Origin: an uncultured Acidobacteriia bacterium
Lineage (GTDB): Bacteria; Acidobacteriota; Terriglobia; Bryobacterales; Bryobacteraceae
Assembly (NCBI GenBank): GCA_903909435.1
Contig: CAIVVT010000157.1
Coordinates: 3,183 to 67,182, forward strand
DNA: 64,000 nucleotides
Reading direction: 5' to 3'
A program made the translations under genes and the position numbers. Positions 16,312 to 62,971 of the stretch are shown here, piece by piece. The notes below the pieces were generated by a model. It did not search any database and was not told the origin of the DNA. It saw only the letters and a list, made by a program, of their open reading frames with translations. Numbering within the stretch: the stretch's first letter is position 1; every line of letters starts with the position of its first letter.

Positions 16312-16323
16312 AGTGGGCGCGTT

Positions 16324-16848
16324 TTGATGGAATTGACGTCACAAACGGGGTTTGAGCCGGGTACGGTCAAAACCGTGCGCCGGGCACGCAGCCGGCCGCG
16401 CGGCCTGACGTTGATCGAGTTGATCGTCGCCTTTACGATCCTGATGCTGCTCACCATGATGGCGCTGCCGCTGGCGCGCTACCGCGTGCGCCGTGAAAAG
16501 GAACGCGATTTGCGAATTGCGCTGCGCGAGATTCGCACGGCCATTGACAAGTACAAGGATGCTTGCGACAAAGGGACCCTTGGGACGCCAAAACTGGGCT
16601 CGGAGTGCTACCCCGAGACGTTGGAGGTGTTGGTGCAAGGCGTGAAGATCGCCAACGATGCGAACGGCAAGAAGATCAAGTTCCTGCGCCGCATCCCGCT
16701 GGATCCTTTCACCAAGCAAAGAGATTGGAACATGCGCAGCAATCAGGATGATCCCGACTCGCAGGGCTGGGGCGGGCAGAACGTGTTTGACGTGAACTCA
16801 AAAACTCTGGAGAGAGCGCCGGATGGGACACCCTATGCGGAGTGGTAA
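16324..16848 (+). CDS. Type II secretion/type IV pilus-like pseudopilin (prepilin N-terminal methylation motif)
   Basis: RG|LTLIELIVAFTILMLLTMMALP prepilin-type motif; C-terminus ...GTPYAEW. Confidence 0.75.
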   Translation: MMELTSQTGFEPGTVKTVRRARSRPRGLTLIELIVAFTILMLLTMMALPLARYRVRREKERDLRIALREIRTAIDKYKDACDKGTLGTPKLGSECYPETLEVLVQGVKIANDANGKKIKFLRRIPLDPFTKQRDWNMRSNQDDPDSQGWGGQNVFDVNSKTLERAPDGTPYAEW

Positions 16849-17230
16849 GAACTCCTTTGGCTTCACGCTGATCGAACTGATGGTCGTCATGGCGATCACT
16901 GCGATCCTGCTGGCCATGGCCATACCCATGTACCAGAAGTCCGTCGTGCGGGCGAAAGAGAGCGTGCTACGCCAGAACCTCTTCACCCTGCGGACCGTCA
17001 TCGACGAATTCACTTACGATAAAGCCAAGGCGCCTCAGTCGCTCACGGATCTTGTCAATGAAGGGTACCTGCGACAGGTTCCGGTCGATCCGATGACGGC
17101 CCAGGCGGACTGGTCCGTGGTCATGGAGGACGCCGTTTCCAGCGTCAACCAGACCGAGCCCGGCATCTTCGACGTCCGCAGCAAGAGTGACCGGAAGTCG
17201 CTCGAGGGCACGCCGTACAACGAGTGGTGA
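16823..17230 (+). CDS. GspG-like pseudopilin
   Basis: FG|FTLIELMVVMAITAILLAMAIPMY...DKAKAPQSLTDLVNEGYLRQVPVDPMT...GTPYNEW. An alternative start, ATG 16835, would give a 9-aa leader. It overlaps the previous gene. Confidence 0.8.
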   Translation: MGHPMRSGKNSFGFTLIELMVVMAITAILLAMAIPMYQKSVVRAKESVLRQNLFTLRTVIDEFTYDKAKAPQSLTDLVNEGYLRQVPVDPMTAQADWSVVMEDAVSSVNQTEPGIFDVRSKSDRKSLEGTPYNEW

Positions 17231-17667
17231 ACCCTACGCCGGGCCACGCCGCACCGCAACAGGGTGAACCCCCTTCTTTGATTGCGACATCCGTGCATCG
17301 TTCTGATGTGGGCGTAGCGGGGCTCTGCCCTGCCGGGCAGGCTCTCACGCTGCGCCTCGCGGCCAGGGGCTTGCGCGTCTCAGTGTGGGACGCTGCGGCT
17401 GGAAGCGTGCGGGAGTTCGTGGCTGGCCACGCCGCTGCACGCGGCGGATTGGTGGGCTATTCCGATTGCGATGACTTTGTCGAGTCGCTGGACCGGCCGC
17501 GCCGGATCGTGATCTTCTCATCGGAAACGTCGCCTGCTCCAGCCCCTCTGCGTGCGCCGCGACCGGATACGGACCGCTGGCTCGAATACCCCTCCGCTGT
17601 TAGCATTGAGGCCCGCTGCGCCGACTTGGACCTGTTGGAACTGACCCTGCTTTTCCAAATGGCCTGA
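17224..17667 (+). pseudogene. Remnant of a 6-phosphogluconate dehydrogenase-type NAD(P)-binding N-terminus
   Basis: Residues encoded at about 17305-17526 (DVGVAGLCPAGQALTLRLAARGLRVSVWD...FVAGHAAARGGLVGYSDCDDFVESLDRPRRIVIFSSE) align by eye with the Gnd N-terminus (IGLIGLAVMGQNLALN..GF.V.VYNR...EEFV.SLEKPRRI). Similarity stops after ~100 aa and the ORF ends at 147 aa. Confidence 0.4.
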
Positions 17668-34958: not shown

Positions 34959-36245
<1,287 letters not shown>

Positions 36246-36262
36246 TCCGGCTCAGTGATCGA

Positions 36263-36300
36263 GCGTGGCGCACGCTGCAGCGCTGGAGCGTGCGCCGCGC
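36263..36300. terminator. Hairpin between convergent gdhA and SelA-like gene
   Basis: gcgtggcgcacgct (36263-36276) / agcgtgcgccgcgc (36287-36300), 13 of 14 paired; no U-tract. Confidence 0.5.
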
Positions 36301-36312
36301 TGGTCAGCCTAA

Positions 36313-37917
36313 TCAGGTGCGATAGGCGTGCCGCGTGGCCGTCCACCTGGCGGAGCCGTATTCGCCCAAACCAACTTCTCCCGACATCGCCGGGCCATCC
36401 ACCGTTCCCGCGAAGCTGTAGTGCAGATTGGTCCCCTCGATGTGGTGTGCGCTGTGGAAGCGCACGGCGCTGCCTTCCACGACGCCCGTCAGATCGCCCT
36501 TGAGAATTTCGCCGCGGTGAATGCCGCTGAGTTGCGGGCCCTTCTGTTCAAACTCGATCTGGTGGGCGGAGGTGCCGTACAGGAACGTGAGTTTCACGTC
36601 CCAGACACCGCTGACATCCACCGCCGGGGCGAGGGCCGCCGGGAGTGCCGGAATGGCCGGCGGGTTGGAGAGCAGCGCGTGGAGCTTGCGGGCGACGACT
36701 TCGCTGTCTCCGGGCATCATCATGTAGGGCATGATGGTGAGCGAACTGGGAGTGTTGTCCCGCCGGTTGCCGGTTGCGTCTCCGACGATAATGCGGGGCT
36801 CGCCATCGAGCAGGATCTTCTGCGCCTCCTCCCCGGTGATTCCCACGGTCTTGCCGTCCCAACGGATCACGAGTTCCGGCGCGTGATTGGAAAGGTCTTC
36901 GGGCTGGCGGACGGAGGTGGTGACACTGGCGACCTTGGTCACTTGCGAACCGATCGCGTCAAGGTAGGATTGCCACGCCTTCCACTCCGCTTCGTGATCG
37001 CGTTTCACCCAGCATTCCACCGCGGTGAGCATGCCGATGATCTCTTCCTTGCCCACTTTGAGCGAGCGGCCGAAAGCGTGGTGCGGCGCGCTGTTGATCC
37101 AGGCGGCCTGCAGCAGGTCCTTAGGCCCGAGCAGCAGGCCGGCGCACTGCGGACCTCGCAGAATCTTGCCTCCGCTGTAAGCCACCATCGTCGCGCCGTG
37201 CGCGAGGTGAATGTTCGGGATGGTCAGGTTCTCCGCGGCGGCGTCCACGATCATCGGCACGCCGTGCTGCCGCGCGGCCCTGGCGACCTCCGGGATAGAG
37301 AGCGGCCCGCTTTCGGCGGCGGGACACGATAGCACGAGCACCATCGCGGTTTTGGCGTTGAAAGCGTTCTGCAATTGCTCCGCGGTTTCGACCTCAATCA
37401 TCTTCACGCCCAGCATCCGGACGGCATGGTCGTACTCGTTGCGGGAGTACCGGGGCATGATGACTTCGCTCTTCATGCCGGTGAGATCGGGCAGCCGCTG
37501 CATCCGCTCGGGGTTCGAGCCCGCGATGCAAGCCGCGGTGGCGTGCGTCAGGGCCGCCGCGCAGCCGGCCGTCACGATGCCCCATTCCGCTTGCGTCAGT
37601 TCCGCCAGTCGCTTGCTGACGGCGCCCATCAACTCGTCCAGGTGGACGTAGTGGTGCGATGCCGCTTCCATGGCGGTCTTGACTTCCGCGAGGCTTTGGG
37701 AGCCGCTGATGATGGTGTACGTACCTTTGCAGTTGATCAGCGGGCGAACCCCGATCGACGCATAAACGTTCGCGGAGGGAGTGGCGTTCCCGCCCGCCAC
37801 GGTTGCGTTCCGCGCGCCGTCGTGCGAGGCGTGCAGCAGGCTCTCGCCAGCCAGCAGGGCGCCGCCCAGCAACAAGCCCCGCCTGCTGGGGGATGGATGT
37901 GTCTGTGATTTCGACAT
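36313..37917 (-). CDS. Tat-exported SelA-like (fold-type I PLP) enzyme with extra C-terminal domain
   Basis: SRRGLLLGGALLAGE Tat motif. VAYSGGKILRGPQCAGLLLG resembles the SelA-family Lys region. There is a ~110-aa C-terminal beta-rich extension. Confidence 0.65.
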   Translation of the reverse strand: MSKSQTHPSPSRRGLLLGGALLAGESLLHASHDGARNATVAGGNATPSANVYASIGVRPLINCKGTYTIISGSQSLAEVKTAMEAASHHYVHLDELMGAVSKRLAELTQAEWGIVTAGCAAALTHATAACIAGSNPERMQRLPDLTGMKSEVIMPRYSRNEYDHAVRMLGVKMIEVETAEQLQNAFNAKTAMVLVLSCPAAESGPLSIPEVARAARQHGVPMIVDAAAENLTIPNIHLAHGATMVAYSGGKILRGPQCAGLLLGPKDLLQAAWINSAPHHAFGRSLKVGKEEIIGMLTAVECWVKRDHEAEWKAWQSYLDAIGSQVTKVASVTTSVRQPEDLSNHAPELVIRWDGKTVGITGEEAQKILLDGEPRIIVGDATGNRRDNTPSSLTIMPYMMMPGDSEVVARKLHALLSNPPAIPALPAALAPAVDVSGVWDVKLTFLYGTSAHQIEFEQKGPQLSGIHRGEILKGDLTGVVEGSAVRFHSAHHIEGTNLHYSFAGTVDGPAMSGEVGLGEYGSARWTATRHAYRT

Positions 37918-38220
37918 TGAGAACCTCCTGGTGTGCGCGACGTTGAAGTCGAATTGTCGATCCTAGTCAGATTCGGCCGGCGGTGTCAAAGGAGGGTGCA
38001 CCGAAATCGCGGCGTTTGGCTCGCCTTTGGGCTTGCGGCCGGTTGTGGGGTGCGTGCCTTGATGCCTGCCGGGCAGGGATGGCGTGGCCGGACATCAGGC
38101 CCAACATCAGGCATGGCAGCGTTGGCTGAAAGGTGTATCCTTTCATCTGGTCAGCTCATCTGATTTCCGCTTGCGGGAAGCGCAACGCAAGGTTTGTCGC
38201 AAACGCCGGGGAGGATATCC

Positions 38221-39732
38221 ATGCCGAGGTCCGACGAATTCGCTGAGGTAATGCTGGATGTCAGCGCGGGAGCGCTGCCAGTGGTGGCCGAACCGACGGA
38301 CGAGACGCCGTTCCGGATTCTGGTGGCCGGTGACTTCAGCGGTAGAGGGGCCCGCGCGAGTGCGCCGGACCGTGGGCGGCTGAAGCCGGTGCTGATCGAC
38401 CGGGACAATTTCGACGAGGTGCTGGCGGCGATGGGCGTGCAGTTGCGCCTGGGCCGGGAGGGCGACGCGGGGGCGACACTGCGCTTCCGGGAGCTGGATG
38501 ATTTTCATCCGGACCGGATCTACCAAAGTCTGGACATTTTCCGTGAGTTGCGGGCGATGCGGGAAGCGTTGGAAGACGCAACCTCGGGCTCGCAGGCCAT
38601 CGCCGAGGTGCGGGCCTGGGCGGGCTTGGGCGGCGGGAAAGCGACCCAGCAGGCCGAGCCGTCGCCTGCGCCAGAGAGCAGGACAGAGGCAACGTACTCG
38701 CCCGGGTTGGCCGGCGGAAGCCTGCTCGACGACATTCTGGACGCCAGCGAGCCGGAGGCTCCGTCGCGGGAGGAGCTGCCGCGCGACCCGCTGCAAGCGT
38801 TCATCCAAAACGCGCTGGCGCCGCACCTGGCTCCGCGGGAAGATCCGCAGGTGCCCGAGTTGCTCGCCCGGTTGGACGAGGCGGCGGGAACGCTGCTGCG
38901 GGCCATCCTGCACGGGCAGGAGTTTCAGGCGCTGGAGGCACGGTGGCGGGCTTTGTTCCAGATGATCCGGCGTCTGGAGACGGGCTCGCTGCTGAAGGTG
39001 TACGCGCTGGATCTGACGCGAGCGGAATTGGTGGAGGACCTGCAGTCCGGAGCGCTGGAAGCGACGGCGCTGCACCGGTTGCTGGTGGACGAGGTGGCCA
39101 GGGATCCGGACCACGGCGGATGGGCGGTGTTCGCGGGGCATTACGGTTTCGATCAATCCGGACGGGACACGGGACTGCTGCGAAGTCTGGGGCGGCTGGC
39201 TCGCGCGGCAGGGGCGGTGTTCCTGGCCGAGGGCGACCTGGGAGGAGGGCCAGAGGCGGCTGGGGACGACGGACCCTGGGGCGCGCTGCGGCGGTCGGCG
39301 GAGGCTTCCCATCTGGGGCTGGCATTGCCGCGCTACCTGCTGCGACTGCCCTACGGCCGGAAGACGGACGAGGTGGAGAGCATCCGGTTTGAAGAGATTC
39401 CGGGGGCGCCGGCGCACGGGGACTACCTGTGGGGCAACCCGGCGCTGGTGTGCGCGACTCTGCTGGGCGAGGCGTTCAGCGAGGACGGCTGGCAGATGCG
39501 GCCAGTCACGGCGAGGGCGTATGGCGATATGCCGCTGCACGTTTACGAAGAGGCAGGCGAGTCCAAGCTGAGGCCGTGCGTGGAACTGGCGCTGACTCCG
39601 CCCGACGCGGAGTGGGCGCTTGGCGAGGGCTACATGCCGCTGATCTGGCTGCGAGGGCAGGACTCCATCCGGTTGGTTCGCTTCCAGTCGATTGCCGATC
39701 CGGCGGCCGATCTGGCGGGACGCTGGGGCTAG
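38221..39732 (+). CDS. Fused TssB(VipA)-like / TssC(VipB)-like contractile-sheath-domain protein
   Basis: ORF 38194..39732; ATG 38221 is 6 nt after GGAGG. TssB-like segment: PFRILVAGDFSGR...PVLIDRDNFDEVLAAMGV...LRFRELDDFHPDRIY. TssC-like segment: AILHGQEFQALEARWRALFQMI...LALPRYLLRLPYG...YLWGNPALVCATLL. Confidence 0.7.
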   Translation: MPRSDEFAEVMLDVSAGALPVVAEPTDETPFRILVAGDFSGRGARASAPDRGRLKPVLIDRDNFDEVLAAMGVQLRLGREGDAGATLRFRELDDFHPDRIYQSLDIFRELRAMREALEDATSGSQAIAEVRAWAGLGGGKATQQAEPSPAPESRTEATYSPGLAGGSLLDDILDASEPEAPSREELPRDPLQAFIQNALAPHLAPREDPQVPELLARLDEAAGTLLRAILHGQEFQALEARWRALFQMIRRLETGSLLKVYALDLTRAELVEDLQSGALEATALHRLLVDEVARDPDHGGWAVFAGHYGFDQSGRDTGLLRSLGRLARAAGAVFLAEGDLGGGPEAAGDDGPWGALRRSAEASHLGLALPRYLLRLPYGRKTDEVESIRFEEIPGAPAHGDYLWGNPALVCATLLGEAFSEDGWQMRPVTARAYGDMPLHVYEEAGESKLRPCVELALTPPDAEWALGEGYMPLIWLRGQDSIRLVRFQSIADPAADLAGRWG

Positions 39733-39857
39733 ACCCGCGCCCGTGCGCCGCGCGACAGCCGGCAGCGCGGCTGGGCTCCCGCCAATCTCCGCTTGTATGC
39801 GGGCGCAAGATTGACTATGCTACTCAACAAGGGGACGAACAGCGTCTCAACGATTTT

Positions 39858-39926
39858 ATGAACGTACCGGTTCAGAGCCTTCTCATTACCCTGGCGGCGG
39901 CGATTATTATCGTCGGCTCCGCCTGA
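39858..39926 (+). CDS. Ile/Val/Leu-rich leader peptide (22 aa)
   Basis: MNVPVQSLLITLAAAIIIVGSA*. It lies upstream of the ACT-protein/ilvA unit and is directly followed by an intrinsic terminator. Confidence 0.6.
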   Translation: MNVPVQSLLITLAAAIIIVGSA

Positions 39927-39965
39927 GACGGCCTGTATTCGGGAGATTCTAACTCGAGTTTCTAA

Positions 39966-40009
39966 AGGGCCCCGGGCGGATCGAACTCCGCACCGGGGCT
40001 CTTTTTTTT
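39966..40009 (+). terminator. Intrinsic terminator / attenuator
   Basis: gccccgggcgga (39969-39980) pairs with tccgc-a-ccggggc (39987-39999). It is followed by tcTTTTTTTTgg (40000-40011). Confidence 0.75.
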
Positions 40010-40078
40010 GGTCCACAGTCCATGAGCCGGAGCCGATCTGGAAATCGGCGTTGCAAGGGCGAGGAAGACGAGGAGAGT

Positions 40079-40426
40079 ATGCGACAGACGATCCGAGTTT
40101 GGGTTGAAGATAAGCACGGCGCGCTGCTGCGGGTGGCCGGCATCATCTCGGCCAAGGGCGCCAACATCCATTCGCTCACGGTCGCCCCCGACCCGTGGGA
40201 GGAGGGCGTCTCGCGGATCACCATCGTCTCCGACCTGGAACCACGGCTGCACCAGCGCGTGGTGAATGAGATGAACCGGCTGGTCAACGTGTTCCTGGCC
40301 GTGGATGTGACCGGCAATCCGCGCGACGTGGCCGCGTCCGCCTCGCCCGTGCGCCGGCAAGCGGCGCTGCCGGTGATGGCTCCGGTTGCGGCGGACGCTC
40401 AGCTTGCCCAGGAGCAGGCGTGGTAA
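40079..40426 (+). CDS. Stand-alone ACT domain protein (IlvN/IlvH-like regulatory subunit)
   Basis: ORF 40022..40426; ATG 40079 follows GAGGAG. IRVWVEDKHGALLRVAGIISAKGANIHSLTV...RITIV...QRVVNEMNRLVNV matches the acetolactate-synthase small-subunit ACT pattern. Its stop overlaps the ilvA start. Confidence 0.7.
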   Translation: MRQTIRVWVEDKHGALLRVAGIISAKGANIHSLTVAPDPWEEGVSRITIVSDLEPRLHQRVVNEMNRLVNVFLAVDVTGNPRDVAASASPVRRQAALPVMAPVAADAQLAQEQAW

Positions 40427-41628
40427 GCCGCAAGAGCATTCAGGCTGCCGCGGAGCGCATCGCGGGCGGAGTCTACGAGTCGCCGCTGGTCTTCTCCGAG
40501 CACCTGTCCGGCATCACCGGCAATGCCATCTACCTGAAGCTAGAGAACCAGCAGATGACGGGTTCGTTCAAGGAGCGCGGCGCGTTGAACCGCATCCTGA
40601 CGCTGACGGAATCCGAACGGCGCCGGGGCGTGATTGCGGCCTCGGCCGGCAACCACGCGCAGGCCGTGGCCTATCACGCGGTGCGGCGCGGCATTCCCGC
40701 CGAGATCTGGATGCCGCGCCACACTCCGCTGATCAAGACCTCGGCCACGCGCGGCTACGGCGCGGAGGTGGTACTGGCGGGCCAGAACTACGACGAGGCG
40801 TGCGAGGGCGCGCTGCGGCGCAGCAAGGAAAGCGGCGCCACGTTTCTGCACGCGTTCGACGACGAGGAAGTCATTGCGGGGCAGGGCACGCTCGGTCTGG
40901 AGATCCTGCGCCAACAGCCTGCGCTCGACGCGATTGTCGTCCCGGTCGGCGGCGGTGGACTGATCGGCGGGCTGGCCTGCGCGGTGAAACAGACCCGTCC
41001 GGAGGTTGAGGTGATCGGCGTGCAAACCGCCAAGCTGCCCTCGATGCAGGCGGCGCTGGAGCGCAACGAGCCGGTGACCCTGCCGGCCGAGGCCACGCTC
41101 GCCGACGGCATCGCCGTGCGCCGGGCGGGCAGCCTGACCCTGCCGCTGGTGCGCGAGTATGTGGACCGGATGGTGAGCGTAGACGAGGAAGAATTGGCGA
41201 CGGCGATTCTGACCCTGCTCGAACGCGAGAAGAGCCTGGCCGAGGGAGCCGGGGCCGCGGCGCTGGCAGCCGTCCTGCACCACAAGACCGGTCATCGCGG
41301 CAAGCGCATTTGCGTGGTGATTTCGGGGGGCAACCTGGACGTGAACCTGCTCGCGCGCATCATCGAACGCGGACTGGTCAGGGACGGCCGGCGGCTGCGT
41401 CTGCGCATCCGCCTGCAGGACTATCCCGGCGAACTGGAGCGGCTGGCCTCGACCATCGCCAAATGCAATGCGAACATCGTCGAGACGTTGCACAACCGGG
41501 CCCATTACGGCGTCAGCCTGGGCGAAACGGCCATCGACGTGACGCTGGAGACGCGCGGCCGCGAGCATTGCAACGAGATCTACGGCGCGCTGGAAACGGC
41601 CAATTACCCGTTCAGCGTGATCGAATAG
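40420..41628 (+). CDS. ilvA: Threonine ammonia-lyase (threonine dehydratase)
   Basis: YLKLENQQMTGSFKERGALN is the PLP-Lys motif. ASAGNHAQAVA; GGGGLIGG; a C-terminal ACT-like regulatory domain of ~80 aa. Confidence 0.88.
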   Translation: MVSRKSIQAAAERIAGGVYESPLVFSEHLSGITGNAIYLKLENQQMTGSFKERGALNRILTLTESERRRGVIAASAGNHAQAVAYHAVRRGIPAEIWMPRHTPLIKTSATRGYGAEVVLAGQNYDEACEGALRRSKESGATFLHAFDDEEVIAGQGTLGLEILRQQPALDAIVVPVGGGGLIGGLACAVKQTRPEVEVIGVQTAKLPSMQAALERNEPVTLPAEATLADGIAVRRAGSLTLPLVREYVDRMVSVDEEELATAILTLLEREKSLAEGAGAAALAAVLHHKTGHRGKRICVVISGGNLDVNLLARIIERGLVRDGRRLRLRIRLQDYPGELERLASTIAKCNANIVETLHNRAHYGVSLGETAIDVTLETRGREHCNEIYGALETANYPFSVIE

Positions 41629-41747
41629 CCGTTCCTCAGCGGGCGACGGACACTCGGCCTGACGGCGACGATTAATTCCTCGCAATGCCAGTTTCCAGCC
41701 TAGTGGTATCTGGACTTTCAGCGTAATAATGGGTCTGGAGGTCCGAA

Positions 41748-43388
41748 ATGCTCCACCACCTGGCACAGCGTCTGGTGGTTCCTCTGACCATCATCGTGGT
41801 AGCCGTAGCGGCTTTTTCAGGGCTCTACACCGTCGCCGGCGAAGAGCGTCAGATGCTGCGGATGATGAGCGAAGGGGCCGACCAGCTATCGCGCAGCATC
41901 ACGAGCGCGACGTGGCATGCCATGCTCGCCGACCGCCGCGAAGACGCATACCAGGTGATGCACACGATTGCCCAGAAGCAGGGCATCGATCACATCCGGA
42001 TGTTCAACCGGAACGGACTGCTGACCTTCTCCACAAAGCCCGAAGAGATCAGCCACCAGAAGGACCGCAGCCTGGAAACCTGCTCGGGCTGCCACGTCAG
42101 CGCCCTGCCGCTGCAGCAGATGGACCTGTCGTGGCGCACGCAGATCCTGAAGAAGCCGGACGGCCAGAGGAGTCTGGACATGGTGACTCCGATCTTCAAC
42201 GAGCCCTCCTGCAGTCAGGCCGACTGCCACGCCCACCCGGCTTCGTTAAAGGTCCTGGGCCTGGTCGACGTGCGGCTCAGCCTGCACAACGTCGATGCCG
42301 AACTGGCCACCATGAAGCTGCGCGTGCTGGTGCGCGTGCTGGTGGAGATCGGGTTGATCAGCCTGTTCATCGTCCTGTTCACGCGGCACTTCGTTGCGCG
42401 TCCACTGATGGAACTGGTCAGCAGTGCGCAAGCCATCAGCCAGATGAACCTGGACCGGCCTGTCCAGGTCACGGACGGCAGCGACGAAATATCGCATCTG
42501 GCGCGCGCCTTCGAGGTGATGCGCGAGAGCCTGAAGTCGGCGCACGAGGAGATCCTGCGGTTCACCCAGACGCTCGAAGACAAGGTGGAGGAGCGCAGCA
42601 GGCAACTGCAGGCCGCTCAGCAGAAGCTGCAGTACAACGACCGGCTGGCCTCGCTCGGGACGCTGGCGGCGAGCGTGGCGCACGAGATCAACAACCCGAT
42701 TGCCGGCGTGCTGAACCTCAGCATGTTGATGCAGCGCATTTTGAAGGACGACGGGATACCGGCGGGACGCGTGGCAGAGTTCCGCCGCTATCTGGCCCAG
42801 GTGACCCACGAGACCTCGCGCGTCGGCCATATCGTGAGCGATCTGCTTTCGTTCAGCCGGCGGGGCAAGCCGCAACGCAGCGCGGCCGACCTGAGCCGGT
42901 TAGTGCGGACGACGGTGTCGCTGGTGGATCACAAGCTGAAGCTGGCCAACATCGCGCTCGATTTGCAACTGGCCGAGAACCTGCCGAGCGTGCACTGCGA
43001 CGGCGGCCAGATTCAACAGGTGGTACTGAACCTGGTGCTGAACGCCTCCGAGTCGATGCACTCGCACGGGTCGGGAACAGTTACGGTGAAGACCTGGGCG
43101 GGCGAAGAAGGCAATTCCGTGAAGCTCAGCGTCGCGGACACGGGCGAGGGCATTCCGCCCGAGGTGCTGCCGCGCATCTTCGACCCGTTTTTCACCACCA
43201 AGCCGGACGGGAAGGGCGTGGGGTTGGGACTCGCGGTCTCCTACGGAATCGTGCAGGCGCACAGCGGCGAGATCGAGGCCCGGAGCGAGCCCGGCGAGGG
43301 AACCGTGTTCACGCTGACACTACCCCTGCAGCCGCCGCCGTCGAAGTCGCCTGGCGAACAGCCCCCGGTGGAGCCGCTGCGGGCATGA
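41748..43388 (+). CDS. Sensor histidine kinase (periplasmic Cys/His-motif domain, HAMP, HisKA, HATPase_c)
   Basis: There are two TM helices. The periplasmic loop carries CSGCH and CSQADCH. H-box is LAASVAHEINNP; N box NLVLNASES; G boxes DTGEGI and GVGLGLAV. Confidence 0.85.
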   Translation: MLHHLAQRLVVPLTIIVVAVAAFSGLYTVAGEERQMLRMMSEGADQLSRSITSATWHAMLADRREDAYQVMHTIAQKQGIDHIRMFNRNGLLTFSTKPEEISHQKDRSLETCSGCHVSALPLQQMDLSWRTQILKKPDGQRSLDMVTPIFNEPSCSQADCHAHPASLKVLGLVDVRLSLHNVDAELATMKLRVLVRVLVEIGLISLFIVLFTRHFVARPLMELVSSAQAISQMNLDRPVQVTDGSDEISHLARAFEVMRESLKSAHEEILRFTQTLEDKVEERSRQLQAAQQKLQYNDRLASLGTLAASVAHEINNPIAGVLNLSMLMQRILKDDGIPAGRVAEFRRYLAQVTHETSRVGHIVSDLLSFSRRGKPQRSAADLSRLVRTTVSLVDHKLKLANIALDLQLAENLPSVHCDGGQIQQVVLNLVLNASESMHSHGSGTVTVKTWAGEEGNSVKLSVADTGEGIPPEVLPRIFDPFFTTKPDGKGVGLGLAVSYGIVQAHSGEIEARSEPGEGTVFTLTLPLQPPPSKSPGEQPPVEPLRA

Positions 43389-58417: not shown

Positions 58418-60082
58418 CTACGTTTCAAGAAAACAGGCCGGAACGAACGAAATGTCGCTTGCCTCCCGCACAGCCAGCCGGATCTGCGATTCGAGGATGT
58501 CGCGGGGCACAGGATTGCGATAGTCCCGAAGGGCTTCAGCTATGGCGGCAAACGGATCCAGGCTGGTGGTCCGTGAGATGCGGTAAATCTTGACCGCTAA
58601 AGCCTCCGCAGCGCCAGGCGTCAGCAGCGCAGGCACCACGGTTTCGATGGCAGCGAAACTGCTGTCTCCGATCTCCATGCCGCGCGCACGGCAAAGTGCC
58701 TGGATCAGATCGAAGCCCTCTCTCGCCGTGGTCGTGGGGAACAGCGGGATCTTTACGTCGATACGTCCGGGGCGCTTCAGATCGACCTCGATCAGGTCGG
58801 GGCGGCTTGAGGCGAGAACCCAGATGATCTTGCCGCGGTTGCCGCTGCGCCCCATCTCCTCAGCGAGCATCGAGTAGACGCGCCCCGAAACGCCAGAATC
58901 GCTGGTTGCTGAGTCGCGCCGGCCCAGCGCCTGGTCGGCCTCGTCCACGAACACGTAGCAGCGCCCAAGGGCGTGAAGCAAACGGAAGATCTTCTCGAGA
59001 TTGCCTTCCGTGGAGCCTACCCACTTGTCGCGGAAGTTCTTCATCTTGACGATGGGCACTCTGGCTTCTCCGGCCAGACATTCGACCAGGAAAGTTTTGC
59101 CCGTGCCGACCGGACCGCAGATCAAGTAGCCCTTTGGAAGCGCATTCAGGTCGCTCTGCGCCCACAGCGTGAGGTCCTGGCGTAGCCACGCCTTCACCTT
59201 CTCCAGCCCATAGAGGTCGTCAAGCGTGCGCTGAGGCTCGATGAATTCAATCAGCCCGTTACAGTCATTCTCGACGATCGACTTCTTGAGACTCACGACA
59301 TCGCCCGAATCGAGCTTCCTTCTGACATGCGCCTTGGCCAGGATCGTCCGCTCCACCGCCCCGAGCGTCGCGCCGGTGAGCTGTGCCGCAACCGCGGGGA
59401 TGGCCCCCTCATCGACGACGCCAGGATGCTGCGCCGCCAGCAATTCCAACGCGCTGCCGAGGTGTTCCGTTATCGGAAGCGGCACCCGGATTCGAGAGGT
59501 GCGCAAGTTGTTGGCCACCAGCGGATGCAGGTCGTGCAGGTTCTCGCAAACCAGGAATGTCGCCAGCGTGTGCCCCGTCAACAGGTCTTCGTTGGCCCAG
59601 TCGCGGATGAGCGTGACCATGGCGCCTAATTCATAGTCCGTCGATGCCGGCGTTGCCGGCATCACAAGATCCGCGCCAAATACGATGCAGGCAACTTGCA
59701 GCCGCGCTTGGTTGAGGCGTGCCAGGTTGGCGCAATACCGGAAGTAGTGCGTCAGCAGATCGACGGCCGCCCGGGGCGCTCGGGGCAAGGCCGGCGCGTC
59801 CTTCATGTTTGGCCAGTTGGAAAACGTCTGGCCGCCTTTGTCGATCCTGATCCCGCTGCCCAGATCGTAGGAGAGCACGACGTCGAAGCGCGGAAGTAGA
59901 ACATCCAGCAGGAAGCTCTTGAGGTCCCCGATGCGCGGCTCGAGCGCCGCTGGAATCAAGATGCGATCCTGAACGTCGCCATGGACGATGAATTGGTTGG
60001 AAGCGTTGCTTTCGTAAAGCTCGATGAGTTCGACCGCCCAGGCCGGCAGGAGCGGCGCGACTTTGGTCTCGCTCGCGGCCAC
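58418..60082 (-). CDS. Two-lobed AAA+ ATPase: degenerate N-terminal lobe + classic-clade AAA module
   Basis: Walker A ICGPVGTGKTF, Walker B CYVFVDEADQ, second-region-of-homology-like DLKRPGRIDVKI. The N-terminal ~280 aa (…NQFIVHGDVQDRI…) have no P-loop. The GTG start overlaps the upstream stop (TAGTG). Confidence 0.85.
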   Translation of the reverse strand: MAASETKVAPLLPAWAVELIELYESNASNQFIVHGDVQDRILIPAALEPRIGDLKSFLLDVLLPRFDVVLSYDLGSGIRIDKGGQTFSNWPNMKDAPALPRAPRAAVDLLTHYFRYCANLARLNQARLQVACIVFGADLVMPATPASTDYELGAMVTLIRDWANEDLLTGHTLATFLVCENLHDLHPLVANNLRTSRIRVPLPITEHLGSALELLAAQHPGVVDEGAIPAVAAQLTGATLGAVERTILAKAHVRRKLDSGDVVSLKKSIVENDCNGLIEFIEPQRTLDDLYGLEKVKAWLRQDLTLWAQSDLNALPKGYLICGPVGTGKTFLVECLAGEARVPIVKMKNFRDKWVGSTEGNLEKIFRLLHALGRCYVFVDEADQALGRRDSATSDSGVSGRVYSMLAEEMGRSGNRGKIIWVLASSRPDLIEVDLKRPGRIDVKIPLFPTTTAREGFDLIQALCRARGMEIGDSSFAAIETVVPALLTPGAAEALAVKIYRISRTTSLDPFAAIAEALRDYRNPVPRDILESQIRLAVREASDISFVPACFLET

Positions 60083-60912
60083 TACTGTGCCTCCGTGGTT
60101 CCGGTCGTCTTGGCAAGCGGCGCTCCGAAGGCGTGATCGAGGTCCGAAACCGCCGACTGGGATTCACCGAAGATCGAGGCGCCCGCGAGGTTGGTAGCCA
60201 ACTCGATGTCGGTGGCGATCGTCTGGGGCTTGCCTTGGATAATCGCGTTCTCGATCATCAGGTCCAGTTGCGCTTCGATTCGAGTGAGGTCGCTCTCGAC
60301 CTCCTCGGTCGATTGTGCGCGGCGCGCTATGTTGGCGAGGCGCTCGCGCAGGATGTTGATGGTCGCTGTCCGAGACTGCCGCAGCGAGTCCGAATCGCTT
60401 GCGTCCTTGTTCCCCGCAGTTAGCAGCTCAATGCGTTTCTGAAGGTCCACTTCGGTTTCGGCGCTCTTGGTCGAGAGTAGATTGTGCTCCGCGACCAGAA
60501 GTTTGAGATAGACCCATTCCAGCCGCCATAAGGCGTCTCTATTCGCCTCGAGCACAAACTCGTCGGCCTGCTGGTTGCGAAAGATCTCGGACACCTGGCG
60601 GCACTTCGCGGAGAGTCGAAGGAGTCGTTGCTGCGACTCTGCCGGGAGAGTCGTGATCAGCAGTCGGCGTTTCTGCTCGGCATCGTTTTCGTCGAGTCGC
60701 ACGTCAGCCGCTTCGACCAACTTCTGAAAGCGCGGATTGGTCGCAAGCAGGAAGAGCAGGGCGGTTTCCAGGCCTACCCCCAGCAGCCAGAACGTGGGCT
60801 CGGCGAATCCCAGGATTCCCAAGCCGACGACGCCCAATAAGTTCACAGGTACCTGCCCCAGAGCCGGCACCGGCACTCTTAAGAAGAACGCGGCTTTGAT
60901 ATAACGCAACAC
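60082..60912 (-). CDS. 2-TM membrane protein with long cytoplasmic coiled-coil, hypothetical
   Basis: Hydrophobic helices are VNLLGVVGLGILGF and FWLLGVGLETALLFLLA. They are followed by ~200 aa of heptad-like, charged sequence. Confidence 0.65.
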   Translation of the reverse strand: MLRYIKAAFFLRVPVPALGQVPVNLLGVVGLGILGFAEPTFWLLGVGLETALLFLLATNPRFQKLVEAADVRLDENDAEQKRRLLITTLPAESQQRLLRLSAKCRQVSEIFRNQQADEFVLEANRDALWRLEWVYLKLLVAEHNLLSTKSAETEVDLQKRIELLTAGNKDASDSDSLRQSRTATINILRERLANIARRAQSTEEVESDLTRIEAQLDLMIENAIIQGKPQTIATDIELATNLAGASIFGESQSAVSDLDHAFGAPLAKTTGTTEAQ

Positions 60913-60950
60913 GTCAATGAAGGCAGTCCGTCAACAGGCTCTCGACGCCT

Positions 60951-61724
60951 TCAGTTCTGTTCCGGGAGGCCCGGTTCCCGGGTCTTGGCCGGGCCCATTG
61001 AACGGGTGGATGGGTCGGCGACCGGGTTGCCCGGAGTGGGGGATTCGAGCGTGATGCCTTCCTTTGCTGCGAAGTCGGCCAGAGCCTGATCCTGGAGTGC
61101 GTGCGTCTCGGCTTCCTTCACCTCGACCTGCGACATGTCCATTGAGTCGCGCGCCACGCGGACGCGGCCAGCGGCCTTTTCACGCTCCGATTCGACCATC
61201 CCCGACAAGCGGTCCAGGGTGTCGCCCGCGCCTCCGATCTGCGACACCATGCCGGAAGCCATCTCGGTCAACTCGGCCATGGCACGCTTCATCTTCAGGT
61301 CGCTGATGCCGGCTCGGAGGGTCTCAATCTTTGCTTTGGCCGTAGACACGGCCACGTCCCGGGAACGGATCAGCTCTTTGTAGGTCGTCTCGGCCTGCTC
61401 CAATTGCCGCCGGTTCTCTTCGAGTTCGCGCTCGACTGTCTGCAGTCGCAGGGCATACTGCCCCGCGGCATCGCGATTGCCGGCCCGCAGATTGGCGCCG
61501 GCCTTGGCGCGCAGATCCCGCTGCTCGCTCTCCTGTTTCCGCACCTGCGTCATTAGCCGCTCGCACAAGCCTGCGTGTGATACCAGACCCTGGTTGTACT
61601 GTGCAATCTGCTTGCGCAGGTTCTCAGTTTCCACTTCAAGGAGTGCTTCCGGATTCTGCTTTTCAAGGCCTGAAATGAAAAGGCTCAGGAAGCCACGGAA
61701 CAAATTCGCGATTCGGTTGAACAT
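60951..61724 (-). CDS. pspA: PspA/IM30 family protein (bacterial ESCRT-III superfamily)
   Basis: ORF 60951..61748; ATG 61724 gives MFNRIANLFRGFLSLFISGLEKQNPEALLE..., the typical PspA amphipathic N-terminus. It has a long coiled coil with ...A..AL..G..DLA..AL-like pattern (LRAGNRDAAGQYALRL), then a Pro-rich ~45-aa tail. Confidence 0.85.
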   Translation of the reverse strand: MFNRIANLFRGFLSLFISGLEKQNPEALLEVETENLRKQIAQYNQGLVSHAGLCERLMTQVRKQESEQRDLRAKAGANLRAGNRDAAGQYALRLQTVERELEENRRQLEQAETTYKELIRSRDVAVSTAKAKIETLRAGISDLKMKRAMAELTEMASGMVSQIGGAGDTLDRLSGMVESEREKAAGRVRVARDSMDMSQVEVKEAETHALQDQALADFAAKEGITLESPTPGNPVADPSTRSMGPAKTREPGLPEQN

Positions 61725-61760
61725 ACAGTCAAAACTCCCGCGCTCCACTCACAACACCCA

Positions 61761-62963
61761 TCATCTGCCCGCCTGCGTCCGCTGCCAACTGGTCAGCAGA
61801 TTGTTCACGACCTCGGCCCGGGGCGGCTCGCAGATCCTGCCCACGTCAATCTGCACACCGTACTTGGCGAATTGCACGAACGGACTTCCCGGGAACTTTA
61901 CCGGAACACTCGGGTTGCCGGGCCGGAAGCCGTGGATCAACGATTCCTTCTGCACGCGCTCGCTGAGCAGAAAGTCCAGGAACGCCTGTGCGGCCTTACG
62001 CTGCTCCGGACTGCTCCACGTGGCGTTGAGGATGTAGTAGGGCGTGTCGTTCCAGGCGTTGTATTCAGGGTAAACTACCCGCAACTGTCCCCAGCGCCCC
62101 TCGGCGTTCCGCAGGTAGTCCATAGCGACGCTTTCGTAGACCAACAGGGTGTCATAGGATGACGGCCCCTTCAGCACCATCTCGCGCATCATGTTACCCG
62201 TGCTGTCGGAAGTGCCCGCGACGCCGCGTTCCAGTTTCTCCAGCCATTCCTGGAATTGGACGTTGACGATGTCCTTCAGTGTCAGGTCACGCGCCTTTCC
62301 TGAATACGAGTACGCCGCCAGAACCAGAGTCATCACGCCCGAGTTCGATTGATTGGGCTGCGTATGGCCAAATTTGAAGAACCCCCACTCAGGCTTGGCC
62401 GCAATCGCCTCCCATCCGCCCTTCTGCTGCTGAGCTTCGGCGATCGTGGCAAAGGAAAGCTTCTGGTACTTCTTCACAAACTCCACATAGCGCTCCTCCC
62501 ACATGACGAACACCATCGGGGTCAGGGCCAACGGCTCTTCCCGCACGATCGGGTTAGTGTTGTACTTCAGCTGCCAGTCCGTGACGAAGCTCTCCTTGTA
62601 AAGCGAACTTGCGGGCGACCACACGTTGATGCGCTGATCCCCGGCGAGCACGGCACGTGCTCCGTCCAGCGAGCCCATTGGAATCAGATTGATCCCGATA
62701 TCGCGCCCCTGTGAAGTGTTCGCGAACTCGCCGACGGCCCACTCCAGCCAGCGCTTCTTCTCCGTCCCATATGCGATTCCGATTTGCACGGCGGCGCCTG
62801 AGGGGTTCACGGCCACGCCCGCGGTTCCGGCACCGCTCCCGCCGAAGGGCCAACGGATGCCGGCAGTCTTGCCAAAGCGGTAGAACGCACCGGCCAGGCA
62901 GGCTGCGACGAACAGAAAAATGAACAGTTTTCCGAGCAGAGTGAGCTTTGGTCCGTCAGCCAT
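61761..62963 (-). CDS. TM-anchored periplasmic substrate-binding-protein-like protein
   Basis: N-terminal anchor LLGKLFIFLFVAACLAGAF, then a PBP-type fold pattern (...INVWSPASS..., ...FGHTQPNQSNSG..., ...HGFRPGNP...). It is paralogous to the N-terminal half of the next gene. Confidence 0.65.
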   Translation of the reverse strand: MADGPKLTLLGKLFIFLFVAACLAGAFYRFGKTAGIRWPFGGSGAGTAGVAVNPSGAAVQIGIAYGTEKKRWLEWAVGEFANTSQGRDIGINLIPMGSLDGARAVLAGDQRINVWSPASSLYKESFVTDWQLKYNTNPIVREEPLALTPMVFVMWEERYVEFVKKYQKLSFATIAEAQQQKGGWEAIAAKPEWGFFKFGHTQPNQSNSGVMTLVLAAYSYSGKARDLTLKDIVNVQFQEWLEKLERGVAGTSDSTGNMMREMVLKGPSSYDTLLVYESVAMDYLRNAEGRWGQLRVVYPEYNAWNDTPYYILNATWSSPEQRKAAQAFLDFLLSERVQKESLIHGFRPGNPSVPVKFPGSPFVQFAKYGVQIDVGRICEPPRAEVVNNLLTSWQRTQAGR

Positions 62964-62971
62964 TGTGTCCT

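What the first reader, a model, noticed from the sequence alone, without database searches (positions are those of the whole stretch)
38221..39732. Solitary fused TssB-TssC-like sheath protein, apparently lacking the TssC C-terminal region, with no other T6SS/CIS genes nearby
One 503-aa ORF carries TssB/VipA hallmarks at its N-terminus (PFRILVAGDFSGR, IDRDNFDEVL, LRFRELDDFHPD). An Ala/Gly/Pro-rich linker follows, and then TssC/VipB hallmarks (ILHGQEFQALEARWRAL, LPRYLLRLPYG, YLWGNPALVCA). In canonical T6SS these are two separate proteins. TssC continues for more than 100 aa beyond the point where this ORF stops, and that C-terminal part contributes to the inter-subunit handshake. The flanking genes are a SelA-like enzyme and the ilv leader. 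No Hcp, VgrG, baseplate, membrane-complex or ClpV genes occur anywhere in the 64 kb. Three explanations are possible: a minimal sheath-derived scaffold with a new role, an accessory subunit of a T6SS encoded elsewhere, or a decayed relic that happens to remain open.
Basis: partly seen in the sequence, partly recalled or inferred. Interest (0 to 1): 0.7.

Follow-up and report, generated by a model that had tools for sequence, protein, structure and literature searches.

The report
Orphan fused, truncated T6SS sheath paralogue
This gene encodes a single-chain copy of the outer two-thirds of a type VI secretion sheath subunit that lacks the part needed to build a sheath; it belongs to a large, conserved and apparently unstudied family that usually accompanies complete secretion systems, but here it sits alone.

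Summary
ORF 38221-39732 (+) encodes 503 aa: a TssB/VipA-like part (residues 26-122), a variable linker, then TssC/VipB domains 3 and 2. It stops about 125-130 aa before a canonical TssC ends, so the inner "handshake" domain 1 is missing. No other T6SS or CIS gene lies in the 64 kb.

It is not a relic. dN/dS is 0.23-0.33. At least 88 homologues share the same fusion and the same truncation point, and all end in one conserved tail (RFQSIA.P...L.GRW). The family forms one clade, separate from canonical TssC. It occurs in Acidobacteriota, Desulfobacterota and Roseobacter plasmids.

In 27 of 48 well-flanked loci the gene sits in or beside a T6SS cluster. In at least 22 loci that cluster has its own canonical tssC, usually with tssB. 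So it is an extra accessory paralogue and not a displaced sheath gene.

The linker keeps the same LLD-type helix as the co-encoded TssC N-terminus, which is the ClpV-recruiting element in studied systems.

Best reading: a non-polymerising sheath mimic that acts on T6SS sheath or ClpV dynamics, encoded here away from its T6SS. Whether this genome has a T6SS could not be tested. I found no paper on the family.

The parts
38221..39732 (+). Complete CDS (503 aa plus stop) of the fused TssB-TssC(delta domain 1) sheath paralogue
   Evidence: ORF list; Pfam PF05591 + PF05943; start supported by the family alignment; dN/dS 0.23-0.33
38221..38295 (+). N-terminal arm, residues 1-25. Predicted disordered and only moderately conserved (M..p.sfg.v.l.v..g). 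Possible counterpart of the TssB beta1 donor strand (RVQITYDVETG in canonical TssB)
   Evidence: pLDDT ~41 for residues 1-18; mean top-residue frequency 0.38. The resemblance to TssB beta1 is by eye only; hhalign starts at beta2, so homology is inconclusive
38296..38586 (+). TssB/VipA-like core, residues 26-122 (beta2-beta3 of sheath domain 2 plus helices of domain 3)
   Evidence: PF05591 E 1.7e-14, profile 23-125/155; canonical-TssB HMM nodes 32-131 of 174; hhalign probability 99%
38587..38700 (+). Variable Ala/Gly/Pro-rich linker, residues 123-160, replacing the TssB C-terminus
   Evidence: pLDDT <50 for residues 138-187; lowest conservation in the protein and 25% gaps
38701..38748 (+). Conserved LLD-type helix (GGSLLDDILDAS), residues 161-176. 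Counterpart of the N-terminal ClpV-recruiting helix of TssC
   Evidence: Aligns with VipB 'GSLLDEIMAQ'. Same motif as the co-encoded canonical TssC 'ESSLLDQIVEQGRF'. L168 and L169 are >=90% conserved. Role of this helix in ClpV recruitment is from PMC5048182
38749..39681 (+). TssC/VipB N-terminal region, residues 177-487 (sheath domains 3 and 2)
   Evidence: PF05943 E 5e-37. AF2 pLDDT mostly >90. Foldseek TssC1 5n8n_B E 3e-19, VipB 3j9g, M. xanthus TssC 5urw
39682..39729 (+). Family-specific conserved C-terminal tail, residues 488-503 (RFQSIADPAADLAGRWG), ending where canonical TssC enters domain 1
   Evidence: Most conserved segment of the protein, mean top-residue frequency 0.69. LxGxW present in 78 of 85 members. 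Unlike the canonical C-terminal donor strand VSLRLVAELP

Best explanation
The gene encodes a member of an ancient, conserved family of accessory T6SS sheath paralogues. One chain reproduces the middle and outer layers of a TssB-TssC protomer (sheath domains 2 and 3), including the TssC N-terminal helix that recruits ClpV. It lacks the inner domain 1, which accepts neighbours' beta-strand arms, contacts the tube and carries the C-terminal donor strand.

Such a protein cannot build or extend a sheath lattice on its own (inference from the solved sheath structures). It should still be recognised by partners that read the sheath surface. I propose it acts as a non-polymerising sheath mimic that modulates T6SS sheath dynamics. 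The most likely mode is engaging ClpV through the LLD helix, either recruiting it or titrating it. A second possible mode is docking on a sheath end or on TssE and blocking further subunit addition.

In this genome the gene is a monocistronic orphan. Its T6SS partner, if present, is encoded more than 24-38 kb away.

Shown: the architecture, the conservation, the T6SS linkage of the family and the retention of the motif.
Inferred: inability to polymerise, ClpV binding, and action in trans on a distant T6SS.
For: Architecture and truncation.

Purifying selection: dN/dS 0.23-0.33.

Fixed end point: all 88 family members stop at TssC HMM node 328-374 of 496, and none is full length. The C-tail is conserved.

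T6SS linkage: 39 of 85 loci, and 27 of 48 loci with >=8 kb on both flanks, have T6SS genes within 10 kb. There are four recurring arrangements:
- fused-tssB-tssC-hcp-tagJ-tssA-tssE-F-G-clpV in Terriglobia;
- tssA-B-C-hcp-tssE-F-G-clpV-fused-vgrG in Desulfobacterota;
- the same clpV...fused-vgrG slot on an annotated Leisingera plasmid;
- tssK-x-tssK-tssL-tssM-fused in Bryobacterales, the sister clade of the window's clade.

Coexistence with canonical TssC in at least 22 loci.

Single origin: the fused clade and the canonical clade are reciprocally monophyletic, and same-locus identity is only 0.35.

LLD helix: it matches the co-encoded TssC N-terminal helix. It is retained in 38/39 linked and 37/46 solitary members. 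It is multiplied into arrays in the Leisingera homologue.

Published roles: the TssC N-terminal helix in ClpV recruitment (PMC5048182); domain 1 and the C-terminus in the handshake (PMC5807055; PMC5813253).

Variable position: related Bryobacteraceae carry the tssK-L-M operon without the fused gene next to it.
Against: - No T6SS gene lies in the 64 kb window, and the whole genome could not be examined. A partner T6SS is therefore assumed, not shown.
- The window's closest relatives (L001, L006-L009) are all solitary.
- ClpV binding, capping and lack of polymerisation are all untested inferences.
- The N-terminal arm's homology to the TssB donor strand is not supported by profile alignment.
- The conserved C-tail has no identified partner.
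- The tree is a simple NJ tree with midpoint root and no support values.
Confidence: 0.6

Rival explanations
1. In the solitary lineages, including this window, the protein has been exapted for a T6SS-independent role. Examples would be a scaffold or an adaptor for another Clp-type AAA+ unfoldase. No T6SS exists in the genome.
For: There are no T6SS genes in 64 kb. The whole clade around the window is solitary, in varied neighbourhoods. 21 of 48 well-flanked loci are solitary. Purifying selection persists. One Bryobacterales lineage has a stand-alone Clp D2-type AAA+ gene directly upstream.
Against: Solitary and T6SS-linked members are interleaved in the tree, and the sister clade is T6SS-linked. 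The solitary clade keeps the LLD helix that matches canonical TssC, and also keeps the family C-tail. Related genomes have T6SS operons with the fused gene not adjacent, so trans-encoding is plausible. There is no recurrent non-T6SS partner apart from loose synteny with a GFO/IDH/MocA oxidoreductase.
Confidence: 0.2
2. It is a chain-terminating or initiating sheath subunit. It docks by its TssB-like N-terminal strand on free domain-1 acceptor sites at the distal sheath end, or on TssE at the baseplate. Because it offers no acceptor itself, it caps the lattice or sets sheath length. This is a sub-variant of the best explanation with a different main partner.
For: The subunit linkers point toward the baseplate, so the distal ring exposes free acceptors, and TssE is a domain-1-like acceptor (PMC5813253). 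The protein keeps a semi-conserved, disordered N-terminal segment with an alternating hydrophobic pattern. The gene lies directly upstream of tssB in 10 loci.
Against: Profile alignment does not detect homology of the N-arm to TssB beta1, and it is among the less conserved regions. The C-tail does not resemble the TssC donor strand. Without domain 1 it has little surface to hold on to the inner layer.
Confidence: 0.12
3. It is a decaying remnant of a tssB-tssC pair that happens to remain open, or an assembly or annotation artefact.
For: The protein is truncated relative to TssC and scores below the NCBIfam equivalog cut-offs. It is isolated from other T6SS genes.
Against: dN/dS is 0.23-0.33. 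More than 85 orthologues from several phyla share an identical architecture and end point. The C-terminus is highly conserved. The AF2 fold is confident. No frameshifted C-terminal remnant exists.
Confidence: 0.02
4. It is the functional sheath, displaced or minimal, of a T6SS that lacks separate tssB/tssC.
For: It contains both TssB-like and TssC-like parts.
Against: It lacks domain 1 and the C-terminal strand that form the handshake and contact the tube. TssC's C-terminus is reported to be needed for tubule formation (abstract of PMC3597794, listed). Wherever a T6SS cluster is seen next to a family member, canonical tssB/tssC are also present or lie divergently adjacent.
Confidence: 0.03

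Closest known systems
Canonical T6SS sheath heterodimer TssB/TssC (VipA/VipB, HsiB1/HsiC1; PDB 3J9G, 5N8N, 5URW, 5MXN)
   Same: Homologous TssB core and homologous TssC domains 3 and 2. Same fold by Foldseek (E 1e-17 to 3e-19). Same LLD-type N-terminal TssC helix. Encoded in the same gene clusters in many genomes.
   Different: One polypeptide instead of two. It lacks TssC domain 1 (about 125-130 aa; no PF18945 hit) and the C-terminal donor strand. The TssB C-terminus is replaced by a disordered linker. It has its own conserved C-terminal L.GRW tail. It is only ~35% identical to the co-encoded TssC and forms a separate clade. Its scores are far below the NCBIfam equivalog cut-offs.
TssC40 / ImpD (Atu4340) of Agrobacterium tumefaciens, a second TssC homologue in the imp operon
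   Same: An additional TssC-family protein encoded in a T6SS cluster beside the true sheath pair. It is not redundant with TssC41 and is required for Hcp secretion, and its role is unexplained (PMC3702570). This is a precedent for a specialised sheath paralogue.
   Different: It is listed only under the TssC COG and not the TssB COG (PMC2660368), so it is apparently not a TssB fusion. I could not obtain its sequence, so its relationship to this family, its domain content and its truncation status are untested.
TssE (gp25-like sheath initiator)
   Same: Also a partial sheath subunit used as a T6SS component.
   Different: It is the structural complement. TssE resembles only sheath domain 1, the strand acceptor. 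This protein has only domains 2 and 3 and no acceptor.
Sheath-stabilising or sheath-stopping accessory proteins TagA, TagB, TagJ
   Same: Lineage-specific T6SS accessory proteins that modulate sheath assembly or ClpV recruitment (PMC10433429, PMC5048182). TagJ is co-encoded in many clusters that hold the fused gene.
   Different: They are unrelated in sequence and fold; none derives from the sheath itself.
Specialised sheath paralogues of extracellular contractile injection systems (several sheath genes per locus, such as Afp2/3/4 and Pvc2/3/4; from my own knowledge)
   Same: The idea that a paralogous sheath protein occupies a special position in the machine.
   Different: Those paralogues keep the conserved inner handshake domain and polymerise. 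Foldseek similarity here is only remote (E ~1e-4, TM ~0.3).

Membership tests
Canonical T6SS sheath (TssB + TssC) | TssB/VipA domain (PF05591) | tested here: met
   E 1.7e-14, residues 26-122
Canonical T6SS sheath (TssB + TssC) | TssC N-terminal sheath domain (PF05943) | tested here: met
   E 5e-37, reaching profile position 299/301; Foldseek to TssC chains E<=1e-16
Canonical T6SS sheath (TssB + TssC) | TssC C-terminal gp25-like domain 1 with handshake strands (PF18945) | tested here: not met
   No Pfam hit. The TssC HMM match ends at node 365/496. The same holds in all 88 relatives. No remnant in the window
Canonical T6SS sheath (TssB + TssC) | Scores above the NCBIfam equivalog cut-offs (TIGR03355, TIGR03358) | tested here: not met
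   137.1 vs 271.5 bits and 45.3 vs 97.25 bits
Canonical T6SS sheath (TssB + TssC) | Two separate subunits encoded by adjacent genes | tested here: not met
   Single ORF. The fusion is conserved in the top 120 database hits
Canonical T6SS sheath (TssB + TssC) | Polymerises around Hcp into a contractile tube | not testable with these tools
   Inferred to be impossible without domain 1 (PMC5807055)
T6SS gene cluster component (this locus) | Co-located with T6SS core genes | tested here: not met
   None in the 64 kb. The whole genome was not available
T6SS-associated accessory protein (family level) | Recurrent, conserved placement in or beside T6SS clusters across lineages | tested here: met
   27/48 well-flanked loci. 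Four recurring arrangements in Terriglobia, Bryobacterales, Desulfobacterota and Roseobacter plasmids
T6SS-associated accessory protein (family level) | Genome-wide co-occurrence with a T6SS when the gene is solitary | tested here: inconclusive
   A TssM search and contig look-ups could not link the solitary genomes to a T6SS
ClpV-recognised sheath subunit | N-terminal TssC helix that binds the ClpV N-domain | tested here: inconclusive
   The sequence motif is present and matches the co-encoded TssC. Binding itself is not testable here
Fused TssB-TssC(delta domain 1) paralogue family (defined in this work) | VipA + linker with LLD helix + VipB N-domain, ending in RFQSIA.P...L.GRW; a clade separate from canonical TssC | tested here: met
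   Alignment A1. The window groups with L001 and L006-L009
TssC40/ImpD-type second TssC | Sequence orthology to Atu4340 | not tested
   Sequence not obtainable. The two plasmid clusters inspected (L089, L090) had no ImpD
Phage/eCIS tail sheath | Phage sheath domains, including the conserved C-terminal domain | tested here: not met
   No Pfam hit. Only remote Foldseek hits, E~1e-4, TM<=0.3
Known anti-phage defence system component | Match to a PADLOC model | tested here: not met
   No hit at E<=0.01

The most novel reading that the evidence does not exclude
The family is an ancient, so far unrecognised class of non-polymerising sheath mimic. In the solitary clades, including this window, it has become independent of the T6SS and works with another partner, for example a Clp-type unfoldase, as a stand-alone scaffold or adaptor. 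This would be the first sheath-derived protein with a function outside a contractile injection machine.
Probability: 0.15. Interest if true: 0.8.

Novelty: new variant of a known kind. Interest (0 to 1): 0.6.

Why it matters
T6SS sheath assembly, length control and ClpV-driven recycling are explained today with TssA, TagA/B/J and ClpV. No sheath-derived regulator is part of that picture.

This is a widespread, strongly conserved protein. It is literally a sheath protomer without its polymerisation domain, it still carries the ClpV handle, and it is encoded inside T6SS clusters of soil Acidobacteriota, Desulfobacterota and marine Roseobacters. That points to an unstudied layer of control in non-model T6SSs.

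It is directly testable in tractable hosts such as Leisingera and Phaeobacter.

It also matters for annotation. Databases label these proteins 'contractile sheath large subunit' or 'ImpC'. That mislabels orphan copies as evidence of a sheath and could inflate T6SS counts in metagenomes.

Tried and rejected
- The conserved C-tail as a mimic of the TssC C-terminal donor strand: rejected, no similarity (L.GRW vs VSLRLVAELP).
- Homology of the N-terminal 25 residues to the TssB beta1 arm: hhalign starts only at beta2. Left as inconclusive.
- A frameshifted or displaced TssC C-terminal domain in the window: none.
- Riboswitch or known RNA around the gene: no Rfam hit in 36000-42000 at E<=0.1.
- Literature: ten full-text searches found no description of a fused or truncated sheath paralogue. 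The 2023 T6SS review lists none.
- Obtaining an ImpD/TssC40 sequence from plasmid-borne clusters: the R. etli and V. parahaemolyticus clusters had no second TssC.
- Linking solitary-clade genomes to a T6SS through a TssM search and contig look-ups: no link found. This instead revealed tssK-L-M operons without the fused gene.
- PADLOC: no hit.
- The GFO/IDH/MocA oxidoreductase beside several solitary copies: treated as local synteny, not as a functional partner.
- Contigs labelled Promethearchaeota, Cytophagia or Dormibacterota among the hits: likely binning errors, not used as evidence of range.
Full report
**1. The observation**

The window contains an ORF at 38194 (TTG) or 38221 (ATG) to 39732 on the + strand. 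The ATG at 38221 gives 503 aa. It is the likely start, because the N-terminal Met and the following residues align across 52 homologues.

Pfam finds T6SS_VipA (PF05591, residues 26-122, E 1.7e-14) and VipB (PF05943, E 5e-37, running to profile position 299 of 301). It finds no VipB_2. NCBIfam hits the TssC and TssB equivalogs at less than half their cut-off scores: 137 vs 271.5 bits and 45 vs 97 bits. Against PDB sequences, residues 162-494 align with residues ~15-361 of TssC/VipB chains that are 473-494 residues long. Residues 24-118 align with TssB/VipA.

An HMM built from canonical TssC proteins of related loci matches only up to node 365 of 496. So about 125-130 C-terminal residues are missing. 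No trace of that domain exists in any frame of the window.

tblastn with every Hcp, VgrG, TssA/E/F/G/K/L/M, ClpV and TagJ ORF from 87 related loci finds nothing else in the window. Pfam scans of 33 window proteins show no T6SS or phage-like CIS family.

**2. It is not a relic**

dN/dS against four relatives (42-75% identity) is 0.23-0.33.

A search of 5.8 billion proteins returned 2,136 hits. The best 120 are 329-525 aa long. 118 of them carry PF05591 + PF05943, and the other two (329 and 383 aa) cover only part of the query. A scan of GTDB species genomes found at least 540 relatives. The best 80 are all of this type.

In all 88 loci examined there is exactly one such protein. Its match to the canonical TssC profile always ends at node 328-374 of 496, with only 8-53 further residues. 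None is full length.

The proteins all end in the same tail, RFQSIA.P...L.GRW, which is the most conserved segment of the whole protein.

On 281 shared columns, the fused proteins (86) and canonical TssC (25) form reciprocally monophyletic groups. A fused protein is only ~35% identical to the TssC encoded in the same locus (simple NJ tree, no support values). The fusion and truncation is therefore one old event, not repeated decay.

**3. What is kept and what is lost**

Published sheath structures divide the protomer into three domains (PMC5807055):
- Domain 1: inner layer, built from TssC C-terminal strands, and the site of the inter-subunit handshake.
- Domain 2: middle layer, TssB beta2-3 interlaced with TssC strands.
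- Domain 3: outer helices, including the TssC N-terminal region targeted by ClpV.

The AlphaFold2 model is confident (mean pLDDT 80.3, pTM 0.78). The exceptions are residues 1-18 and the linker, residues 138-187. Foldseek's best matches are TssC chains of five T6SS sheaths, E 3e-19 to 6e-16, over ~310-340 columns.

The protein thus equals domains 2 and 3 of a protomer in one chain. It lacks domain 1 and the C-terminal donor strand.

In the otherwise variable linker there is a conserved helix, GGSLLDDILDAS, with L168 and L169 >=90% conserved. It aligns with the VipB N-terminus GSLLDEIMAQ. [quoted passage not shown] This helix is the element through which ClpV is recruited to contracted sheaths (PMC5048182).

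The N-terminal 25 residues are disordered and moderately conserved. By eye they resemble the TssB beta1 arm, but profile alignment does not support this.

**4. Genomic context of the family**

All-against-all clustering of ORFs from 88 loci, followed by Pfam naming of the conserved clusters, shows recurring arrangements:

- (A) Terriglobia and others: fused-tssB-tssC-hcp-tagJ-tssA-tssE-tssF-tssG-clpV. Often tssK/L/M, a PpkA-like kinase and a PP2C phosphatase lie upstream.
- (B) Desulfobacterota: tssA-tssB-tssC-hcp-tssE-F-G-clpV-fused-vgrG.
- (C) Bryobacterales: tssK-x-tssK-tssL-tssM-fused, with canonical tssB divergently upstream (L012).
- (D) Solitary copies.

A tblastn search of plasmids added Roseobacter-group plasmids. 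On a Leisingera plasmid annotated by NCBI, the homologous module lies between clpV (tssH) and vgrG in a complete cluster.

Of 85 non-redundant loci, 39 have T6SS genes within 10 kb. Of the 48 with at least 8 kb on both sides, 27 do. At least 22 loci hold canonical TssC as well. The protein is therefore an extra component, not the sheath itself and not a displaced sheath gene.

The contexts are interleaved in the family tree. The window's gene falls in an all-solitary clade (L001, L006-L009; Bryobacterales, Solibacter, Paludibaculum). That clade is sister to the clade where the gene follows tssM.

Two further Bryobacteraceae genomes have the same tssK-L-M operon without the fused gene beside it. 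The gene's position relative to the T6SS therefore varies among close relatives.

**5. The local unit**

The upstream gene is divergent, a PLP enzyme at 36313-37917 on the - strand.

Downstream lies a 22-codon Ile/Leu/Val-rich ORF (39859-39927). After it comes a GC-rich hairpin with a T-run (39986-40008). This precedes an ACT-domain gene and a threonine-dehydratase-like gene.

The fused gene is thus most likely transcribed alone.

**6. Mechanism**

Shown: a conserved, selected protein that is a sheath protomer minus its polymerisation domain. It carries the TssC N-terminal helix motif and is genetically tied to T6SS clusters in many lineages.

Inferred: without domain 1 it cannot accept neighbours' strands, donate the C-terminal strand or contact Hcp. 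It therefore cannot extend a sheath (PMC5807055; PMC5813253).

My preferred model is a sheath mimic that engages sheath-reading partners, first of all ClpV through the LLD helix, to recruit it or titrate it. Three observations support this:
- The helix stands out against the variable linker and is kept in 38/39 linked and 37/46 solitary members.
- clpV is the most frequent same-strand gene immediately upstream (7 loci; tssM in 3). tssB (10 loci) and vgrG (4 loci) are the most frequent immediately downstream.
- The Leisingera homologue surrounds the module with about 780 aa of acidic, Lys/Arg-free sequence made of dozens of LD(G/D)L-type repeats, and has an acidic tail ending in AALLDDL. This looks like a multivalent array of the same short motif.

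A second possibility is capping or initiating. Subunit linkers point toward the baseplate, so the distal ring exposes free acceptors, and TssE is itself a domain-1-like acceptor. A subunit with a donor arm but no acceptor would terminate the lattice. The evidence for a functional donor arm is weak, and the C-tail is not donor-like.

The partner of the highly conserved C-tail is unknown.

**7. Comparison with what is known**

The protein is a homologue of TssB and TssC, but it fails defining features of the canonical sheath: it has no domain 1, it scores below the equivalog cut-offs, and it is fused.

The nearest precedent is TssC40/ImpD of Agrobacterium. That is a second TssC homologue, non-redundant with TssC41, required for Hcp secretion, and of unknown role (PMC3702570). 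It is listed under the TssC COG only. I could not obtain its sequence, so any relationship is untested.

Ten literature searches and a 2023 review revealed no description of a fused, domain-1-less sheath paralogue. Databases call these proteins 'contractile sheath large subunit', 'sheath domain-containing protein' or 'ImpC'.

**8. Verdict**

The finding is real. The relic and displaced-sheath readings are rejected. The protein belongs to a large, apparently uncharacterised family of T6SS-associated sheath paralogues, and this copy is an orphan.

The main open point is whether this genome, and the other solitary-clade genomes, encode a T6SS elsewhere. I could not test this with the available scans.

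Novelty: a new variant of a known kind. Interest 0.6.

Noticed in passing
window 39859-40008 (+): A 22-codon ORF, MNVPVQSLLITLAAAIIIVGSA, is followed by a GC-rich hairpin and a T-run (39986-40008). It lies just upstream of an ACT-domain (AHAS small-subunit-like) gene at 40022-40426 and a PALP/threonine-dehydratase-like gene at 40420-41628. This is a plausible branched-chain amino-acid leader-peptide attenuator. There is no Rfam match.
   Followed up: partly
L088 13592-17704 (Leisingera methylohalidivorans plasmid NC_023136.1, WP_342667109.1): The Roseobacter homologue is annotated as a 1,370 aa protein. The fused sheath module (VipA 800-895, VipB 981-1264) is preceded by ~780 aa with 35% Asp/Glu and no Lys/Arg, built of dozens of VLDGL/LDDLLGSL/LDALLGGL-type repeats. 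It is followed by an acidic tail ending in AALLDDL. This may be a multivalent array of the LLD motif. Whether the long N-terminal ORF is really translated was not checked.
   Followed up: partly
L049 1247-2428, L051 8646-9851, L057 8758-9930, L062 4449-5729: In one Bryobacterales lineage, a stand-alone ~390 aa Clp D2-type AAA+ protein (AAA_2 + ClpB_D2-small, with no N-domain or D1) lies directly upstream of an otherwise solitary fused gene.
   Followed up: partly
L091 and L092 (Bryobacteraceae contigs of 981,655 and 452,158 bp): Both carry tssK-x-tssK-tssL-tssM operons like those that end with the fused gene in sister genomes, but here they lack it. The next gene is a BlaI-like repressor in L091 and an FHA+SLT protein in L092. 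An unnamed ~430-750 aa gene with no Pfam hit (two Pfam-scanned examples, in L003 and L004) is conserved on the opposite strand between the two tssK copies.
   Followed up: no
L066 5688-9940 and L078 5692-9923: In the Terriglobia-type clusters, two conserved proteins without any Pfam domain (~897 aa on the - strand and ~441 aa on the + strand) sit between the PpkA-like kinase and the fused gene. They are candidate further accessory components.
   Followed up: no
window 58421-64000 (-): A gene string of VWA protein, solute-binding protein, PspA/IM30-family protein (60954-61748), an unknown 276 aa protein, and a 554 aa classic AAA (PF00004) ATPase with weak IetA-like PADLOC hits. A PspA/ESCRT-III-like protein beside an AAA ATPase may be worth a look.
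   Followed up: no
window 13801-17664 (+): A secretin with a C-terminal cohesin domain (836 aa), followed by three small ORFs. This is an unusual secretin architecture. It is unrelated to T6SS.
   Followed up: no
window 36313-37917 (-): The 'SelA-like' neighbour is a 534 aa PLP-dependent enzyme. It has only weak, sub-threshold SelA similarity and comparable hits to Cys/Met-metabolism and class-V aminotransferase families (weak SspA/DndA-like in PADLOC). Its C-terminal ~200 aa have no family match above Pfam's cut-off.
   Followed up: partly
L032, L064, L078: Family members on contigs binned as Promethearchaeota, Cytophagia and Dormibacterota. L078 carries a full acidobacterial-type T6SS cluster. 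These are probably binning errors or recent transfers.
   Followed up: no
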